A stretch of 64,000 nt of DNA from Promethearchaeota archaeon (lineage in GTDB: Archaea; Asgardarchaeota; Hermodarchaeia; Hermodarchaeales; Hermodarchaeaceae): contig JBHLPH010000009.1 in NCBI GenBank assembly GCA_048939625.1, positions 1 through 64,000 of the forward strand, read 5' to 3'. Below the pieces are notes generated by a model, which worked only from the letters and a program-made list of their open reading frames with translations, did not search any database and was not told where the DNA came from. Shown in pieces: positions 4,939 through 44,892 of this stretch (positions are counted from its first letter, which is position 1; each line of letters opens with the position of its first letter). Both the position numbers and the translations under genes were made by a program.

Positions 4939-5568
4939 TTGAATCTCAAAACCATAGGCGATAGTATATATTCAAATCTAGCATCCCAAAACACATCTCG
5001 CGATTTGCTGATCAATGAAATGCACAAGGTGCTTAAAGAAACTCGAAAAGCGATTTCTGCTATACATCAAAATGAGATGAAGAAGGCTAGGACTTCACTA
5101 GAAGATGCTCAATCTATGTTGAAAGCCGCTCAGAAGCATCTTAAAAAATTGAGTCAACTTCCTGTAATTGGACTTGTTCATGACGCTGAAGGCGAAGTTA
5201 CTGAGGCTACGCTCCTTTTGGCGTTTCGCCATAATGAGGAGCTTCCGAACCCAGAAAAAATCGGTGTTAGTGATATTGGCTATCTTCAAGGACTGGGGGA
5301 CCTTGTAGGCGAACTTCGTCGGTATTCAATTGATTCTCTAAGTCAGGATAATTTAGACGAAGCTAAAAGAGCATTTAGCCAAATGGGACAAATATACGAA
5401 ATACTGATGACCTTTGATTTTCCGCGTGGATTAACACCTGGGATTCGAAGGAAAACAGACGTTGCTCGTGGTCTTATAGAACGAACACGCGCAGATCTCA
5501 GTACAGCAATTGAAAATCGTCGGCTACTTGCAGGAATTACCTCATTACAAAACTCACTTGGAAATTAA
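4939..5568 (+). CDS. Translin/TRAX (C3PO)-like protein
   Basis: All-helical; E..EA, YLQGLGDLVGELRR, RRKTDVAR.LIERT motifs. Confidence 0.85.
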   Translation: MNLKTIGDSIYSNLASQNTSRDLLINEMHKVLKETRKAISAIHQNEMKKARTSLEDAQSMLKAAQKHLKKLSQLPVIGLVHDAEGEVTEATLLLAFRHNEELPNPEKIGVSDIGYLQGLGDLVGELRRYSIDSLSQDNLDEAKRAFSQMGQIYEILMTFDFPRGLTPGIRRKTDVARGLIERTRADLSTAIENRRLLAGITSLQNSLGN

Positions 5569-8633: not shown

Positions 8634-8733
8634 GCCTCGGTAGCTCAGTGGTAGAGCGACAGCCTCGTAAACTTCTTTTCTTTGTGGTCGAGTAAGCTGC
8701 TGGTCGTGGGTTCAATCCCCGCCCGAGGCTCCA
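8634..8733 (+). tRNA. tRNA-Thr(CGU) with BHB intron at 37/38 (8670..8694); CCA encoded
   Basis: Acceptor GCCTCGG/CCGAGGC-T-CCA; anticodon CGT 8666-8668; BHB CUCG-UAA...CGAG-UAA. Confidence 0.93.
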
Positions 8734-22741: not shown

Positions 22742-23506
22742 TCAGGTTAGTGGTTCTGCAGATTGATATAGATAAAGAAAATAAATCTTAGCTAACTCAC
22801 CTAACTCGGTGTGGCTTGTCCAGATTGCTAATGATTCTGCTGGTTGAGTCGTTAGCATGATTATTGCCTGTTTTTCATCAATGATTGCCCCTCCACCATA
22901 GATTTCTTTACGTTTCCGTCCTTCTCCAACAGCCGAAATAAGTCTCTGAACTTTGTCTGTAAGAGTCTGTTCGGATACAAGAATTTGAATCTTAACACCT
23001 CGATCACGGAGATGGAAGAGGGTAGGCGAAATAAACTCGATATCTTCTTCGCTAATTATCCCCCAAGAAAGTAGAAGGCTGCGTTCTGCTTGTCCTAGAG
23101 CCACATTCAGCTTTGCCCGGACATTATTTGATCCATGAAGGATGTGCACTTCAGGAGCTGAAATTTTTGTTTTTTCATCAAATAAGGGTTGGAGATTCTC
23201 GATTACTCTTTGTTCCCATTCTGCGAGTCGATCTTGTGCAGAAAGAACAGCAGCTTTAGCTGTTTCACGAGGGCTTTTCGGAATGTAACGCTTCGGACGA
23301 CCTTGCTCTATAGTTATCCATCCACCCTGTTCAAGTGCAGCCAACACATCATATACACGACTGAAGGGAATTCGTGACTGGGCACTGACCTCGCTGGCAG
23401 TTAGTGCTCCATTCTTAACTAATGAAACGTATACTCGCGCTTCGTAGCTACTCAATCCCAAACTTCGGAGTGCTCGTATCGTTCCTTCATCCAAGCGCTC
23501 ACTCAT
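22742..23506 (-). CDS. TrmB family transcriptional regulator
   Basis: LGLSSYEARVY.SL, RVYDVL..LE..G, GRP..Y; start at ATG 23506. Confidence 0.92.
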   Translation of the reverse strand: MSERLDEGTIRALRSLGLSSYEARVYVSLVKNGALTASEVSAQSRIPFSRVYDVLAALEQGGWITIEQGRPKRYIPKSPRETAKAAVLSAQDRLAEWEQRVIENLQPLFDEKTKISAPEVHILHGSNNVRAKLNVALGQAERSLLLSWGIISEEDIEFISPTLFHLRDRGVKIQILVSEQTLTDKVQRLISAVGEGRKRKEIYGGGAIIDEKQAIIMLTTQPAESLAIWTSHTELGELAKIYFLYLYQSAEPLT

Positions 23507-25107: not shown

Positions 25108-26986
25108 TAACCTCTACCTCATGGATTGCCTTGTACGGACAGATTTGGGAACAGACACCACAACCTGAGCATAGATCAGCGTCAATGGCAGCGTGTTCAC
25201 CTGCCCAAATAGCGGCAGCACAACCTAGTTTGTCCGTGCAAACACGGCAGCCCTGGCAGATTTCAGGATCTACTTCATAAGGAATAATAGGTTCATCTGC
25301 ACGGCGCTTCCTCGCTCCTTCGAGTAGAGCACAAGGACTTCGCGATATAATCACAGCGGGGCCATCATAAGCAACTGCTTCTCGGATTACACGAATGGAA
25401 TCTTTCACTTGAAGAGGATCAATAACCTTAACGTATTCGACTCCCACACCTTTTGCTACATCTTCGATGTTAATTTGAGTTACTGGAACGCCCATTCCAG
25501 TTATTCCAGTTCCTGGGTGTGGCTGATGCCCTGTCATTGCAGTGGTGTGGTTATCAACGACTATGATCTTAACCGGATGCTGGTTGTACACAGCATTTAC
25601 TAATCCAGGAATTCCCGAATGGAAAAAGGTTGAGTCTCCTATTGCTCCAACAATGGGTTTGTCTAAAACCGCTGTCAGTCCACACGAGGTTCCGATACTC
25701 GAACCCATGCATAGAAGTAAATCTGCCATCTCTAGAGGAGGTTGAATTACTAATGTATAGCATCCAATATCGGTTGGGTAGACGCCTTTACGTCCCGTAG
25801 CCACAGCCACTTCATAAAAGGTTGCGCGGTGAGGGCAACCTGCACATAGAATTGGTGGTCGTGGGGGCGCTTGTGCATTTGATTCAGATAGTTTATTATC
25901 AACTTCTTCAAAGCCAGGCGGGATCTCCTTGTCCAAAGCTTTTGCAATACCTTCAATTACTGTCCTTGGAGAAAATTCGCCTATCTCAGAGAAGTATCCT
26001 TGACTTTTACCAATTATTGGCGTTGTTATCCCACTTTCTTGGGCAAAAGCACGTGCATGGTTCTCAAGGTATGGTTTCAATTCCTCGATTACGATGACCT
26101 TCTCTTTGGAAGCGATAAACTTCTGAATTTTTTTCTTTGGAAGAGGATAAGTCATTCCTAACTTGAAAACTGCTGCTTTCAGCTGTAGTGTTTCAAGTGC
26201 CTCCATAACATAGTTAAAACTAACACCTGATGTAAGGACTCCAAGTTTTCCTTCTCCGATAATACGGTTCCACTCACTTTTTTCTGAAATTGTAGTAGCC
26301 TGTTTTACCTTTTCAACTAGAATCGGATGACGTAATCTGGCAACCGTTGGTATAGTCACAAACCGAAAGGGGTTGCGTTCAAAGTTCGCCTTCTTTCGTG
26401 GTGGACGTATTTTTCCTAATTCAACACCTGACCGCGTATGACTTACACGAGTCGTTACTCGGAGTAACACCGGTTGTTCAAGCTTCTCTGATAAATCAAA
26501 CGCGGCGATGGTCATATCTTTTGCTTCTTGAGGGTCTGCGGGTTCAAGCATTGTTGTATCGCCTAGCATGGCATACAACCGATTATCCTGTTCATTTTGT
26601 GAGCTCCAACAGCCGGGATCATCTGCAGAGACAATAACGAGTCCTGCTCGAACGCCGATGTAATTTAAAGTCATGAAGGCGTCAGATGCGACATTGAGAC
26701 CAACATGTTTCATAATAACGAGTGCGCGTGCGTTGGCTACGGCTGCCGCTCCGGCTACTTCCATTGCAACTTTTTCGTTAGTGCAGTATTCAAAGAAATA
26801 ATTGCCTTTCTTAGCCGCATGAGAAAGACTATCACCGATTTCCGACGAAGGAGTACCAGGATAGGTTGCTGCAAGTTCCAATCCCGCTTCTATTGCTCCA
26901 CGCGCAATAGCTTCATTTCCTAATAGCAGATAATGTTTACCGGGACTACCCTTTGTTAGAATCTCAGACATGTCCATCGAAATCAC
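25100..26986 (-). CDS. iorA: Indolepyruvate ferredoxin oxidoreductase alpha subunit
   Basis: GNEAIARGA, YPGTPSSE, KHVGLNVA, C.GCPH, GDSTFFHSG, C-terminal ferredoxin. Confidence 0.96.
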   Translation of the reverse strand: MISMDMSEILTKGSPGKHYLLLGNEAIARGAIEAGLELAATYPGTPSSEIGDSLSHAAKKGNYFFEYCTNEKVAMEVAGAAAVANARALVIMKHVGLNVASDAFMTLNYIGVRAGLVIVSADDPGCWSSQNEQDNRLYAMLGDTTMLEPADPQEAKDMTIAAFDLSEKLEQPVLLRVTTRVSHTRSGVELGKIRPPRKKANFERNPFRFVTIPTVARLRHPILVEKVKQATTISEKSEWNRIIGEGKLGVLTSGVSFNYVMEALETLQLKAAVFKLGMTYPLPKKKIQKFIASKEKVIVIEELKPYLENHARAFAQESGITTPIIGKSQGYFSEIGEFSPRTVIEGIAKALDKEIPPGFEEVDNKLSESNAQAPPRPPILCAGCPHRATFYEVAVATGRKGVYPTDIGCYTLVIQPPLEMADLLLCMGSSIGTSCGLTAVLDKPIVGAIGDSTFFHSGIPGLVNAVYNQHPVKIIVVDNHTTAMTGHQPHPGTGITGMGVPVTQINIEDVAKGVGVEYVKVIDPLQVKDSIRVIREAVAYDGPAVIISRSPCALLEGARKRRADEPIIPYEVDPEICQGCRVCTDKLGCAAAIWAGEHAAIDADLCSGCGVCSQICPYKAIHEVEVNE

Positions 26987-40177: not shown

Positions 40178-41014
40178 ATGACTTCGACGGGAAAGACTTT
40201 GTCAAAACCACGATTCTCTATTGATGATAAGATATGGCTCCGCCAATCCCCTTCTCTCGAAGAGGCCAGTGTATTAATTCAAAATGCAATTTCACAAAAA
40301 CGTTTCATCCTAATTATTGGAGTTTGTTTTGTTGAGTACCAGGGGCGAGCCCGTTCAATTCTAACTGAAGGGGAACGCCTTGTTCTCATAAAACGGGATG
40401 GCACGATACTTGTGCATAAGGAAAGTGGGGTTGAACCATTAAATTGGCAACCGCCTGGTGCAACAATGAAAGTCACATACGAGGAGGATACTCTCATTCT
40501 TTATGCTAATCGTGCTAAACCCCGTGAAACTGTTCGTATTGAATTTTCCTCCCTCACAATGCTAAGTGCTAGCCTGTTAGATGATCCAGGTGAATTCAGT
40601 ATGTATCTAACTGAAGATGAAATGCAACAGGTTCTTAGCACCCACCCCGAACTTATTGAGCCTGGTCTCCGGACCATTGGTCGAGAGCGTCAAGTCGCTC
40701 CCGGGTTCATTGATATATTTGCTCGCGATAGTGACGGACGTTTAGTGATTATTGAGGTGAAGCGCCGTCGAGCTGACAGCGAAGCAGTGCACCAACTTCA
40801 TGGCTATCTCAAAAGCTTTCAGAGTGAAGAGGGTACAGATATCCGAGGAATACTTGTTGCTCCAAGTCTTACTAAAGGTACTTTCACACTCTTAGAACAA
40901 CTTGGTTTGGAATATCGCAAAATTGAACCACAACAATGTGCAGCATATCTGCTTCAGAATAGTTCACATAAACTAACCGATTTCATTGCAAATTCGGAAC
41001 CAGACGAAGGCTAG
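40178..41014 (+). CDS. nucS: Mismatch-specific endonuclease NucS/EndoMS
   Basis: Y.GRA.S.L, K.DG...H, P.NWQPP, ID, E.KR, QL..Y. Confidence 0.95.
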   Translation: MTSTGKTLSKPRFSIDDKIWLRQSPSLEEASVLIQNAISQKRFILIIGVCFVEYQGRARSILTEGERLVLIKRDGTILVHKESGVEPLNWQPPGATMKVTYEEDTLILYANRAKPRETVRIEFSSLTMLSASLLDDPGEFSMYLTEDEMQQVLSTHPELIEPGLRTIGRERQVAPGFIDIFARDSDGRLVIIEVKRRRADSEAVHQLHGYLKSFQSEEGTDIRGILVAPSLTKGTFTLLEQLGLEYRKIEPQQCAAYLLQNSSHKLTDFIANSEPDEG

Positions 41015-41556
41015 CTAATACATGACCAGGCGATTTGTCTAAAGGCATCAGTAACACCCTGCCCTTCCTTCGCACTAGTCTCAAAATATCCCCAACCAAG
41101 CTGTTGTGCGTACGCCATTCCTTCATCAGTTGTAATCTGGCGTTCAACAGTTAAATCCACTTTGTTAGCCAACAACACAGTTGGTACAGCACCGGTAACC
41201 TGAGACACTTCGGTATACCACGCGGGGAGAGCATCAAATGTCTGACGGCGAGTCACATCATATACTAAAATCACACCTGCTGCTCCCCGATAAAATACCG
41301 GACGAACCGAACTAAAATGTGGTTGTCCAGCAAGATCCCATAACTGTAATCTGACTAGCGTATCTCCAAAATCGAGTTCTTTGACCGCGAAACTCGTACC
41401 AACTTTCATGTCCCATCTGAATTACAGATGGAATGTCATGATGTACGATTCGCGGAAATGTCCTTCAGTGTAACGGATGATAAGGCTGGTTTTTCCAACA
41501 GCCCCATCACCGACAACACAGACTTTGAGAACATACTGGCGTTGTTGTACACTCAT
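41011..41556 (-). CDS. Rab/Ras-like small GTPase, 171 aa after removal of a predicted 30-nt BHB intron: join(41556..41435, 41404..41011)
   Basis: AGGAG SD then ATG 41556; G1 GDGAVGKTS, G2 YIMT|VG restored by splicing, G3 WDLAGQ, G4 NKVD, G5 TSAK. The ORF track shows only the 3' part (41011..41409). Confidence 0.9.
41405..41434 (-). other. Predicted bulge-helix-bulge intron in mRNA (ATTCCATCTGTAATTCAGATGGGACATGAA)
   Basis: CAUG-AC^A-[UUCCAUCUG-uaauu-CAGAUGGGA]-CAUG-AA^A with exon-exon helix UCGUAC/GUACGA; contains in-frame TAA. Confidence 0.85.
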
Positions 41557-41726
41557 GTAGCCTTGCTCCTAGCGAGGGCTCAGTTTGTTTGACTTTCGTT
41601 TGTAAGCATATATTGGTTTCGTTCATCATGGGCATTTAGGGGTAGGTAATTAATTTCGCCCAATGATTTTTATGCTGTTGAAGATTCGTAGCCTTACGAT
41701 AGGAATTTATGGAGTAGCGTTTTACA

Positions 41727-44746: not shown

Positions 44747-44892
44747 GGGCACGTGGCTTAGCCTGATGGAGCGCCGAACTACCGCGCTTAACGCGTGGAG
44801 TGTGTATGCCTTATATGGAGTCGCTCCGAACATTCGTTTGCGAAACCTAGGTAAGCCGGAGGTCGCGGGTTTGAATCCCGCCGTGCCCACCA
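44747..44892 (+). tRNA. tRNA-Ile(UAU) with two BHB introns: 29/30 (44777..44807) and 37/38 (44816..44853); CCA encoded
   Basis: Acceptor GGGCACG/CGTGCCC-A-CCA; spliced anticodon arm CCGGC-CT-TAT-AA-GCCGG; BHB helices GCGC/GUGU and CUUA/UAGG. Confidence 0.87.

What the first reader, a model, noticed from the sequence alone, without database searches (positions are those of the whole stretch)
41011..41556. tRNA-type (BHB) intron inside the mRNA of an Asgard Rab-like GTPase, at the switch-I threonine
Seen: from a good SD and ATG (41556) the gene reads MSVQQRQYVLKVCVVGDGAVGKTSLIIRYTEGHFRESYIMT, then FHL*FRWDMK, then VGTSF...WDLAGQ...NKVD...TSAK. The extra 30 nt fold into a 3-4-3 bulge-helix-bulge: exon helix UCGUAC/GUACGA, central 4-bp CAUG/CAUG, bulges ACA and AAA, and a 9-bp intron stem UUCCAUCUG/CAGAUGGGA. 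Established: archaeal splicing endonuclease EndA cuts after the second nucleotide of each bulge, and RtcB ligates. Applying this rule joins ATG-AC to A-GTT, giving M-T-V-G, which restores the frame and the conserved G2 Thr and removes the stop (171 aa). Treating the insert instead as a transposon-like insertion with a CATGA target duplication would give MKVG and lose the Thr, so the BHB reading fits better. The well-known archaeal protein-gene BHB intron is in crenarchaeal cbf5; I know of none in an Asgard eukaryotic-signature gene. Inference: splicing gates expression (unspliced RNA yields a 44-aa P-loop stub), mechanistically reminiscent of endonuclease/ligase splicing of HAC1/XBP1 mRNA. Annotation pipelines would call this a pseudogene or a truncated 132-aa protein.
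Basis: partly seen in the sequence, partly recalled or inferred. Interest (0 to 1): 0.96.

Follow-up and report, generated by a model that had tools for sequence, protein, structure and literature searches.

The report
tRNA-type intron in Asgard Rab GTPase
A Rab-like GTPase gene of an Asgard (Hermodarchaeia) archaeon is interrupted by a 30-base hairpin shaped like a tRNA intron, and comparison with relatives indicates the messenger RNA must be cut and rejoined by the tRNA-splicing enzymes, a kind of splicing published inside an archaeal coding sequence only for the gene cbf5.

Summary
On the minus strand, a 171-codon Ras/Rab-family gene (41556..41011) carries a 30-nt insert (41434..41405) with an in-frame TAA. 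It folds as a bulge-helix-bulge: central helix CAUG/CAUG, bulges ACA and AAA, a 9-bp inner stem (z = -5.8).

- **Splice product:** thirteen complete intron-less orthologues (plus a partial one) read ESY(I/L)MTVGTSF, the product predicted by the EndA cutting rule.
- **Other carriers:** five distinct intron alleles occupy the same site (three species genomes plus independent JGI, ENA and Logan assemblies), so it is not an assembly artefact.
- **Structure conserved:** central helix and bulges are invariant; three inner-stem pairs change compensatorily.
- **Gene still functional:** dN/dS among carriers is 0.02-0.06 at near-saturated synonymous divergence, so it is not a pseudogene.
- **Exon constraint:** synonymous sites in the exon codons forming the outer helix are frozen only in carriers (p = 9e-8).
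- **Patchy distribution:** carriers are not one clade (AU p = 3e-6).
- **Machinery and company:** the genome encodes a two-subunit EndA and RtcB. I verified similar inserts in its cbf5, dnaG and an EF-2 paralogue.

No RNA evidence was obtainable, and "gating" of expression is untested. This scan has already noted similar introns in Rab-like genes of other Asgard genomes. No held paper describes a BHB intron in an Asgard protein-coding gene.

The parts
41435..41556 (-). Exon 1 (122 nt). It runs from ATG 41556 to the first two bases (AC) of the switch-I Thr codon and encodes the P-loop GDGAVGKT and ...FRESYIM(T).
   Evidence: Pfam Ras profile 1-32. pN is 0-0.015 at pS 0.45-0.59 among intron-bearing alleles.
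41405..41434 (-). 30-nt BHB intron, assuming cuts after the 2nd nucleotide of each bulge. It comprises the third bulge base A, the 9-bp stem h' (41433..41425 with 41419..41411), the loop UAAUU (41424..41420) holding the in-frame TAA (41424..41422), the 3' strand of the central helix CAUG (41410..41407) and AA.
   Evidence: Absent from the 13 complete intron-less orthologues (and the partial G004 allele), which are otherwise collinear. Single copy in the genome. Recovered by a motif-free tblastn census as a 10-residue block containing a stop.
41011..41404 (-). Exon 2 (394 nt including TAG 41013..41011). It starts with the third base of the Thr codon, then VGTSF...WDLAGQ...NKVD...TSAK.
   Evidence: Pfam Ras profile 32-158, E = 2e-35. 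Orthologues.
41437..41440 (-). 5' strand of the central 4-bp helix H (CAUG, exon 1). It pairs with 41410..41407 and is followed by the 5' bulge ACA (41436..41434).
   Evidence: Invariant in all five alleles.
41404..41406 (-). 3' bulge AAA. The predicted cut lies between 41405 and 41404.
   Evidence: Invariant in all five alleles. The cut position gives the junction seen in intron-less orthologues.
41441..41455 (-). 5' strand of the exon-exon outer helix (CCGCGAA-UCGUAC-AU), within codons F-R-E-S-Y-I.
   Evidence: 96% of cells paired; changes are G-C to G.U or A-U to G.U. Synonymous sites are frozen only in intron-bearing alleles.
41385..41403 (-). 3' strand of the exon-exon outer helix (GU-[UG]-GUACGA-[GU]-UUCGCGG), within codons V-G-T-S-F-A-V.
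41566..41570 (-). Shine-Dalgarno-like AGGAG, 9 nt upstream of the ATG.
   Evidence: Read directly.

Best explanation
The 30 nt at 41434..41405 (minus strand) are an archaeal bulge-helix-bulge intron in the pre-mRNA of a Rab-like small GTPase of a Hermodarchaeia (Asgard) archaeon.

Proposed mechanism: after transcription, exon codons on both sides pair with each other (2 + 6 + 7 bp) and the intron forms a 9-bp hairpin. This presents two 3-nt bulges (ACA, AAA) on opposite strands of the 4-bp helix CAUG/CAUG. The cell's two-subunit (alpha-beta)2-type splicing endonuclease EndA cuts after the second base of each bulge. RtcB then joins ...AUGAC to AGUUGG..., which recreates the codon ACA for the switch-I (G2) threonine and yields a 171-aa GTPase. 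Unspliced RNA would give only a 44-aa peptide, because every allele carries a stop codon (TAA or TGA) at the same place in the intron loop.

Shown here: the structure, its conservation and covariation, the exact match of the predicted junction to intron-less orthologues, purifying selection on both exons, structure-linked synonymous constraint, and the presence of EndA (two paralogues) and RtcB.

Inferred: that cleavage and ligation actually happen and that these enzymes carry them out.

The intron is patchily distributed (3 of 15 species of the genus, plus two further alleles from metagenomes, one of sister-genus type). It has therefore been precisely lost several times, or has moved between alleles by recombination together with its flanking helix-forming codons.
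For: 1. Geometry and stability: z = -5.84; strict BHB within 1.2-2.2 kcal/mol of the MFE in four alleles, 3.0 or more in allele E.
2. Predicted junction equals the natural sequence: 13 complete intron-less orthologues (plus the partial G004 allele) read ...ESY(I/L)MTVGTSFAVK with ATGAC(N)GT(N)GG.
3. Real DNA, not an artefact: the same 30-nt insert at the same codon in G000, G007 and G012 and in independent JGI, ENA and Logan assemblies, giving five distinct alleles.
4. Structure conservation: H and both bulges are invariant; three h' pairs have changes on both sides (C-G/U-A, U.G/U-A/C-G); 95% of cells are paired against 27-42% when partners are slid.
5. The gene is functional in carriers: pS 0.62-0.73, pN 0.046-0.077, dN/dS 0.02-0.06, with exon 1 pN 0-0.015.
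6. Exon codons -8..+2 are fixed at synonymous sites only in carriers, while intron-less alleles use 3-6 codons there. Junction versus rest of gene: 10/60 vs 282/539, p = 9e-8 in carriers; p = 0.78 in intron-less pairs.
7. Machinery: an alpha-like EndA (186 aa, 5e-47 to 3p1z_B), a divergent second EndA (198 aa, also hitting 3p1z_A and 3iey_B), and RtcB (570 bits). Asgard EndA is described as (alpha-beta)2 with the L1 loop linked to broad specificity (PMC5829648).
8. Precedent within the same genome: BHB-rule excision restores conserved motifs in dnaG (28 nt), an EF-2 paralogue (31 nt) and cbf5 (40 nt). A motif-free tblastn census against a distant complete relative finds only Rab, the EF-2 paralogue and dnaG interrupted.
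Against: - Splicing has not been observed. No spliced junction or exact spliced product was found in the metagenome contigs or the protein collection, although these hold mostly DNA assemblies.
- The 3' half of the motif is relaxed. The helix closing the 3' bulge has only 2 bp (A-U, U.G), reduced to 1 in allele E. The unconstrained MFE prefers a 5-bp central helix with an internal loop.
- Covariation rests on five alleles only: 9 of 500 shuffles reach the observed score.
- Genome-wide, BHB geometry combined with ORF-joining is no more frequent than a decoy pairing rule. Geometry alone carries little weight; the case rests on comparative data.
Confidence: 0.8

Rival explanations
1. The gene is functional and the 30 nt are removed or skipped, but not by EndA/RtcB. 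One possibility is programmed translational bypassing (phage T4 gene 60 type), in which the hairpin and the stop codon make the ribosome hop. Another is cleavage by a different nuclease.
For: There is a hairpin with a stop codon shortly after the break, and a repeat CAUGA(C/A)A at both ends. Purifying selection requires only that the protein is made, not a particular mechanism.
Against: - Hopping between matched codons would have to go AUG to AUG and give M-K-V-G. That loses the switch-I Thr that every intron-less orthologue has. The codon before the landing point (AAA) does not match the take-off codon ACA.
- Bypassing does not explain the 15 conserved exon-exon pairs or the frozen synonymous sites on the 3' side.
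- The cuts predicted by the EndA rule give exactly the natural junction.
- From general knowledge, no bypassing is known in archaea.
Confidence: 0.08
2. The insert is a DNA-level insertion (a miniature inverted-repeat element with a CATGA target duplication, or a replication slip) that has inactivated the gene, making it a pseudogene.
For: The insert has terminal inverted repeats and a flanking 5-nt direct repeat CATGA. Gene callers report truncated proteins.
Against: - The element is single-copy in the genome even allowing 3 mismatches, and the covariance model finds it only in this gene.
- Carriers have diverged to near synonymous saturation, yet dN/dS is 0.02-0.06 in both exons and the frame is intact.
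- The insert itself is conserved with compensatory changes.
- Precise excision at the duplication would give MKVG, which is not the MTVG of the orthologues.
Confidence: 0.03
3. The two pieces are translated separately (a 44-aa P-loop peptide and a 132-aa protein starting at the ATG of CATGAAA) and assemble into a split GTPase.
For: An ATG lies at the start of the 132-aa ORF in all alleles.
Against: - That ATG is part of the invariant central helix, so its conservation is explained without invoking translation.
- No conserved Shine-Dalgarno precedes it: the upstream bases differ among alleles (GGGAC, GGAAC, AAGAC, GAGAC).
- The split would fall inside switch I.
- This reading does not explain the BHB geometry, the exon-exon helix, or the intron-less orthologues.
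Confidence: 0.03

Closest known systems
BHB intron in the cbf5 (pseudouridine synthase) pre-mRNA of Crenarchaeota (Watanabe 2002; Yoshinari 2006; Yokobori 2009, PMC2738675)
   Same: A short intron inside a protein-coding sequence, bounded by a (partly relaxed) bulge-helix-bulge. It is cut between the 2nd and 3rd bulge residues by a hetero-oligomeric EndA, shows presence/absence polymorphism among related species, and is routinely mis-annotated as a split or frameshifted gene.
   Different: The host gene is a Rab-like small GTPase, a eukaryotic signature protein, rather than an RNA-modification enzyme. The lineage is Asgard/Hermodarchaeia, not Crenarchaeota. The length is a multiple of three with a conserved stop in the loop. 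There is a long exon-exon helix with measurable synonymous constraint. Splicing has been shown experimentally for cbf5 but not here.
Archaeal tRNA introns (hBHBh' motif; Marck and Grosjean 2003) and their EndA/RtcB pathway
   Same: The same motif geometry (3-4-3), the same predicted cut positions, a similar size (tRNA introns are 11-175 nt per PMC2738675), and the same enzymes, which this genome encodes. The genome is rich in tRNA introns: two intron-bearing tRNAs lie in this window alone.
   Different: The exons are coding sequence. The outer helix is built from codons instead of a tRNA stem, so the protein sequence and the RNA structure constrain the same bases.
BHB intron in the 5' UTR of Haloferax volcanii HVO_1309 mRNA (Schwarz 2020, PMC7714728)
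   Same: An mRNA substrate of the archaeal splicing endonuclease, shown in vivo and in vitro.
   Different: That intron lies in the untranslated leader and the enzyme is the homodimeric type. Here the intron interrupts the reading frame.
HAC1/XBP1 unconventional mRNA splicing in eukaryotes
   Same: Protein-only endonuclease plus RNA-ligase splicing of an mRNA at stem-loop sites, which changes the protein that is made. RtcB is the ligase for XBP1 in animals (general knowledge; PMC5829648 cites RtcB acting on HAC1).
   Different: The endonuclease there is Ire1 rather than EndA/TSEN, the recognition motif differs, and the splicing is a regulated stress response. No regulation is shown here, so this is an analogy only.

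Membership tests
Archaeal BHB (EndA-type) intron | [quoted passage not shown] | tested here: met
   CAUG/CAUG with ACA and AAA, invariant in five alleles. The strict form lies 1.2-2.2 kcal/mol above the MFE in four alleles and 3.0 or more in allele E.
Archaeal BHB (EndA-type) intron | Flanking helices h (exon-exon) and h' (intron) | tested here: met
   h' is 9 bp, with 3 covarying pairs. h is 2 bp next to the bulge, then a 2-nt bulge and 13 further bp. The proximal h is weak, so the 3' side is relaxed.
Archaeal BHB (EndA-type) intron | Cutting after the 2nd base of each bulge yields a functional mature RNA | tested here: met
   The predicted junction ATGAC|AGTTGG equals the sequence of intron-less orthologues and restores MTVG.
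Archaeal BHB (EndA-type) intron | The host encodes the splicing endonuclease and an RtcB-type ligase | tested here: met
   Two PF01974 genes (106 and 69 bits) and one PF01139 gene (570 bits). PDB matches suggest one alpha-like and one beta-like subunit.
Archaeal BHB (EndA-type) intron | The intron is actually excised and the exons ligated in RNA | not testable with these tools
   No transcript data were available. Searches for the spliced junction or product found nothing.
Ras-superfamily (Rab-like) small GTPase | G1-G5 motifs in order and a match to the family profile | tested here: met
   GDGAVGKT, T (restored at the junction), WDLAGQ, NKVD and TSAK are all present. PF00071 covers positions 1-32 plus 32-158 of 162. 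Sources name the orthologues 'Rab family GTPase'.
Programmed translational bypass (T4 gene 60 type) | Matched take-off and landing codons that give the conserved protein sequence | tested here: not met
   ACA and AAA do not match. AUG to AUG would give MKVG and lose the conserved Thr.
Miniature transposable element insertion | Multiple copies in the genome, with decay of the disrupted gene | tested here: not met
   Single copy. dN/dS is 0.02-0.06.

The most novel reading that the evidence does not exclude
The intron and its helix-forming flanking codons behave as a mobile cassette that spreads, or is erased, between alleles of Asgard small-GTPase genes by recombination. Its splicing would be conditional, so that EndA/RtcB activity controls how much active GTPase is made, with the conserved loop stop codon ensuring that unspliced RNA gives no GTPase. 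On this reading, Asgard archaea would have a regulated, protein-enzyme-based mRNA splicing layer acting on eukaryotic signature genes, a prokaryotic counterpart of HAC1/XBP1-type splicing.
Probability: 0.1. Interest if true: 0.92.

Novelty: new member of a known kind. Interest (0 to 1): 0.75.

Why it matters
- **How rare this is in print:** in the papers I could search, splicing of a coding sequence by the tRNA-splicing enzymes is documented in archaea only for crenarchaeal cbf5, plus one 5'-UTR case in Haloferax.
- **What this case adds:** the same kind of intron sits in a Rab-like GTPase, one of the proteins that link Asgard archaea to eukaryotes. At least three other genes of the same genome (cbf5, dnaG, an EF-2 paralogue) carry similar inserts.
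- **Implication for Asgard biology:** the closest prokaryotic relatives of eukaryotes appear to interrupt protein genes routinely and to depend on RNA cutting and rejoining to express them.
- **Practical consequence:** gene callers split or truncate these genes (114-, 132- and 44-aa fragments here), so counts of Asgard GTPases and other proteins are biased.
- **A clean evolutionary case:** the carrier versus non-carrier comparison shows an RNA structure imposing selection on synonymous codon positions, and an intron with a patchy, possibly recombination-driven distribution.

Tried and rejected
1. **Structure-only genome census.** Three scans combined BHB geometry, ORF joining and, later, coding potential. 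They recover the Rab and dnaG introns, but a decoy (mirror) pairing rule gives as many hits at every stringency (for example 9 real vs 11 decoy at h' >= 9). No new introns are claimed from them. The first coding threshold was too strict and had to be recalibrated on the verified cases.
2. **Search for a spliced transcript.** Two pattern scans of metagenome contigs that allowed a 0-30 nt gap found only the unspliced allele D contig. The protein search found no 171-aa product identical to this allele.
3. **Motif-free census.** tblastn of 1,776 ORFs of a complete distant relative (G019) against this genome found only Rab, the EF-2 paralogue and dnaG interrupted. It missed cbf5, so it is a lower bound limited to conserved genes.
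4. **Covariance-model search of the class** (19 genomes). No carriers beyond G000, G007 and G012. Weak 46-nt hits in G002, G004 and G005 are intron-less alleles that keep part of the exon complementarity.
5. **L120 paralogue insert** (32 nt). The fold is no better than shuffles (z = -0.7) and the central helix has only 3 bp, so it is not used as support.
6. **ARAGORN** found no tRNA in the window, although Rfam finds two intron-bearing ones.
7. **Rejected readings:** pseudogene, MITE insertion, translational bypass and split protein (see rival explanations). An intein or a group I/II intron is excluded by the size (30 nt) and the in-frame stop.
Full report
**What is there.** On the minus strand, an ORF starts at ATG 41556, 9 nt after an AGGAG. 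It reads MSVQQRQYVLKVCVVGDGAVGKTSLIIRYTEGHFRESYIMT and then FHL-stop. A second ORF in the same frame (41409..41011) reads MKVGTSF...WDLAGQ...NKVD...TSAK. Pfam's Ras family matches the first piece at profile positions 1-32 and the second at 32-158. One small-GTPase gene is therefore interrupted by 30 nt exactly at the switch-I threonine.

**The fold.** The 76 nt around the insert fold at -31.6 kcal/mol, against -15.6 +/- 2.7 for dinucleotide shuffles (z = -5.84). In the bulge-helix-bulge reading the parts are:
- central helix CAUG/CAUG;
- bulges ACA (41436..41434) and AAA (41406..41404) on opposite strands;
- a 9-bp intron stem with loop UAAUU, which holds the in-frame TAA;
- an exon-exon helix of 2 bp (A-U, U.G), a 2-nt bulge, 6 bp (UCGUAC/GUACGA), a 2-nt bulge and 7 bp (CCGCGAA/UUCGCGG).

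The strict 3-4-3 form lies 1.2-2.2 kcal/mol above the unconstrained optimum in four alleles and 3.0 or more in allele E. The optimum extends the central helix by one U-A pair and opens the 3' bulge into an internal loop. The motif is thus canonical on its 5' side and somewhat relaxed on its 3' side. Cutting after the second base of each bulge removes 41434..41405 and joins ...ATGAC to AGTTGG..., giving a 171-aa protein.

**Orthologues give the answer the splicing rule predicts.** All 14 other species genomes of the same genus, and two of the sister genus, have one clear orthologue in the same neighbourhood (IleRS - Rab - NucS). Thirteen complete orthologues, plus the partial G004 allele at a contig end, have no insert and read ...ESY(I/L)MTVGTSFAVK, with ATGAC(N)GT(N)GG across the site. 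Two of the genus genomes (G007, G012) carry a 30-nt insert at exactly the same place.

Further carriers came from independent assemblies. One JGI, one ENA and one Logan contig share a fourth allele. A Logan contig repeats the G007 allele. Two Logan contigs carry a fifth allele in a sister-genus-type gene only 65% identical in exon 2. The insert is therefore real DNA and not an assembly artefact. Gene callers render these genes as 114-, 132-, 136- or 44-aa fragments.

**Structure is what is conserved.** Across the five alleles the central helix and both bulges never change. Three pairs of the inner stem change on both sides (C-G/U-A twice; U.G/U-A/C-G). Changes in the exon helix are wobble-compatible (G-C to G.U, A-U to G.U) or fall in unpaired positions. 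Overall, 95% of pair cells are standard pairs, against 27-42% when partners are slid by 1-3 columns. With five sequences the shuffle control is only moderately strong (9 of 500). Every allele has a stop codon (TAA or TGA) at the same loop codon.

**The gene is alive.** Intron-bearing alleles differ at 62-73% of synonymous sites but at only 4.6-7.7% of non-synonymous sites, giving dN/dS of 0.02-0.06. Exon 1 alone has pN 0-0.015. A gene broken since before these lineages split could not look like this, so the full-length protein must be made.

**The exons carry the imprint of the RNA structure.** In carriers, codons -8 to +2 around the junction are fixed at synonymous positions (TTC CGC GAA/G TCG TAC/T ATC/CTC ATG ACA | GTT GGT ACG). 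The 13 intron-less alleles use 3-6 different codons for the same Arg, Ser, Thr, Val and Gly residues. A few codons further out, carriers vary as freely as the others. The counts are:
- carriers: synonymous-codon differences at the junction 10/60, against 282/539 elsewhere (p = 9e-8);
- intron-less pairs: 22/60 against 193/558 (p = 0.78).

**Distribution.** A maximum-likelihood tree of the coding sequence, built without the junction codons, does not group the carriers.
- G007 (intron) is sister to G001 (none) at 100/99 support.
- The metagenome allele E is sister to G016 (none) at 100/97.
- Forcing the carriers into one clade costs 197 log-likelihood units (AU p = 3e-6).

In the three sister pairs that differ in intron state, the junction codons are more diverged than the rest of the gene (28/45 vs 160/425, p = 0.002). 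That is more than loss followed by relaxed constraint would produce. It hints that the junction segment has been exchanged by recombination, although the direction (gain or loss) cannot be told. Three intron-less alleles (G002, G004, G005) keep part of the exon complementarity, which may be a footprint of loss.

**Machinery and host.** The genome (2.31 Mb, 83 contigs, 88% complete) encodes two EndA-domain proteins. One (186 aa) aligns end to end with 3p1z_B and 3ajv_B, which I recall as the catalytic chains of the crenarchaeal heterotetramer (5e-47). The other (198 aa) is more divergent and also matches the partner chains 3p1z_A/3ajv_A and NEQ261. There is also one RtcB. This fits the published statement that Asgard archaea have the (alpha-beta)2 EndA with the L1 insert associated with broad specificity (PMC5829648). 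Orthologues of 81-92% identity come from MAGs named Candidatus Hermodarchaeota, Hermodarchaeum yapensis and Promethearchaeota, so the Asgard assignment holds.

**Not alone in the genome.** Following unverified leads from earlier notes of this scan, I located three further interrupted genes and checked each one myself:
- dnaG (C63): 28 nt, 9-bp inner stem. Excision restores GALFGQTEG|LLGEDL.
- An EF-2 paralogue (C28): 31 nt, GAGG/CCUC. Excision restores EEQRRG|ITIKSAN.
- cbf5 (C19): 40 nt, CUGG/CCAG with bulges AUA and AAA. Excision restores GIINLD|KPPGPTSHEV.

A motif-free census aligned 1,776 ORFs of a complete, distant relative (G019, 1.42 Mb) to this genome. It found only three genes with a short interrupting insert: the EF-2 paralogue (query residues 15-69 and 70-715 abut, 31 extra nt), dnaG (28 extra nt) and the Rab gene (a 10-residue block with a stop, seen by nine paralogous queries). 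Such interruptions are therefore rare, and each of these three folds as a BHB or a relaxed BHB. In contrast, scans based on BHB geometry plus ORF joining gave as many hits with a decoy pairing rule as with real pairing. Geometry alone proves nothing, and I claim no further introns from those scans.

**Rivals.**
- A pseudogene or transposon insertion is excluded by purifying selection, single-copy status and the wrong product (MKVG).
- Ribosomal bypassing would need matched take-off and landing codons. The only matched pair (AUG/AUG) loses the conserved Thr, and bypassing does not explain the exon-exon helix.
- Separate translation of two pieces lacks a conserved ribosome-binding site and would split switch I.
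- I cannot exclude that an enzyme other than EndA does the cutting.

**What is missing.** There is no RNA evidence. Two scans of metagenome contigs for the spliced junction, and a protein search for the exact spliced product, found only unspliced DNA. The idea that splicing gates expression has no support beyond the conserved loop stop codon.

**Novelty.** Papers in the searched library report coding-sequence BHB introns in archaea only for crenarchaeal cbf5 (PMC2738675), plus one 5'-UTR intron in Haloferax (PMC7714728, which says so explicitly). In a recent preprint on Asgard tRNA introns, the words mRNA and cbf5 do not occur. I found no paper on BHB introns in Asgard protein genes. Within this scan, however, similar introns in Rab-like genes of other Asgard genomes, and apparently this same intron in a congener, have already been noted. 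Those are unchecked AI notes and I did not use them as evidence. I file this as a new member of a known kind: the mechanism is the known EndA/RtcB pathway, while the host gene, the lineage and the documented exon-structure co-constraint are new.

Noticed in passing
G000 contig C63, + strand, about 5084-5111 (outside the window): dnaG is interrupted by a 28-nt insert with H GCCU/GGGC and a 9-bp inner stem. BHB-rule excision restores GALFGQTEG|LLGEDL. G019 lacks the 28 nt.
   Followed up: partly
G000 contig C28, - strand (plus-strand coordinates about 25996-26026): An EF-2 paralogue is interrupted by a 31-nt insert (GAGG/CCUC, bulges AAA and AAU) next to its own switch-I RGITI motif. Against G019, tblastn residues 15-69 and 70-715 abut, with 31 extra nt in G000.
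   Followed up: partly
G000 contig C19, + strand, about 22759-22798: cbf5 is interrupted by a 40-nt insert with CUGG/CCAG and bulges AUA and AAA but weak flanking helices. Excision restores GIINLD|KPPGPTSHEV. The G019 census did not detect it.
   Followed up: partly
L120:563-594 (JAEOTO010000005.1, Ca. Hermodarchaeota isolate YT2_032): A paralogous long Rab-like GTPase has a 32-nt frame-shifting hairpin insert at TY|KMTIG, three codons upstream of the site studied here. Its orthologues in other genomes lack it. The central helix has only 3 bp and the fold is no better than shuffles (z = -0.7), so it may be a relaxed intron or a broken gene.
   Followed up: partly
window 8634-8730 (+) and 44747-44889 (+): Rfam finds two tRNA genes of 97 and 143 nt, so both are intron-bearing, the second probably with more than one intron. 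ARAGORN finds no tRNA in the window.
   Followed up: no
L169-L171 (G004, G005, G002 orthologues): These intron-less alleles still have CCGCGAA...GTTGGTAC...TTTGCGG and score weakly with the intron covariance model. This may be a footprint of a precisely lost intron.
   Followed up: no
window 40178-41014 (+) and 41011-41013 (-): The NucS endonuclease gene converges on the GTPase gene, and their ends overlap by 4 nt. The neighbourhood IleRS - Rab - NucS - methyltransferase is conserved in the metagenome contigs.
   Followed up: no
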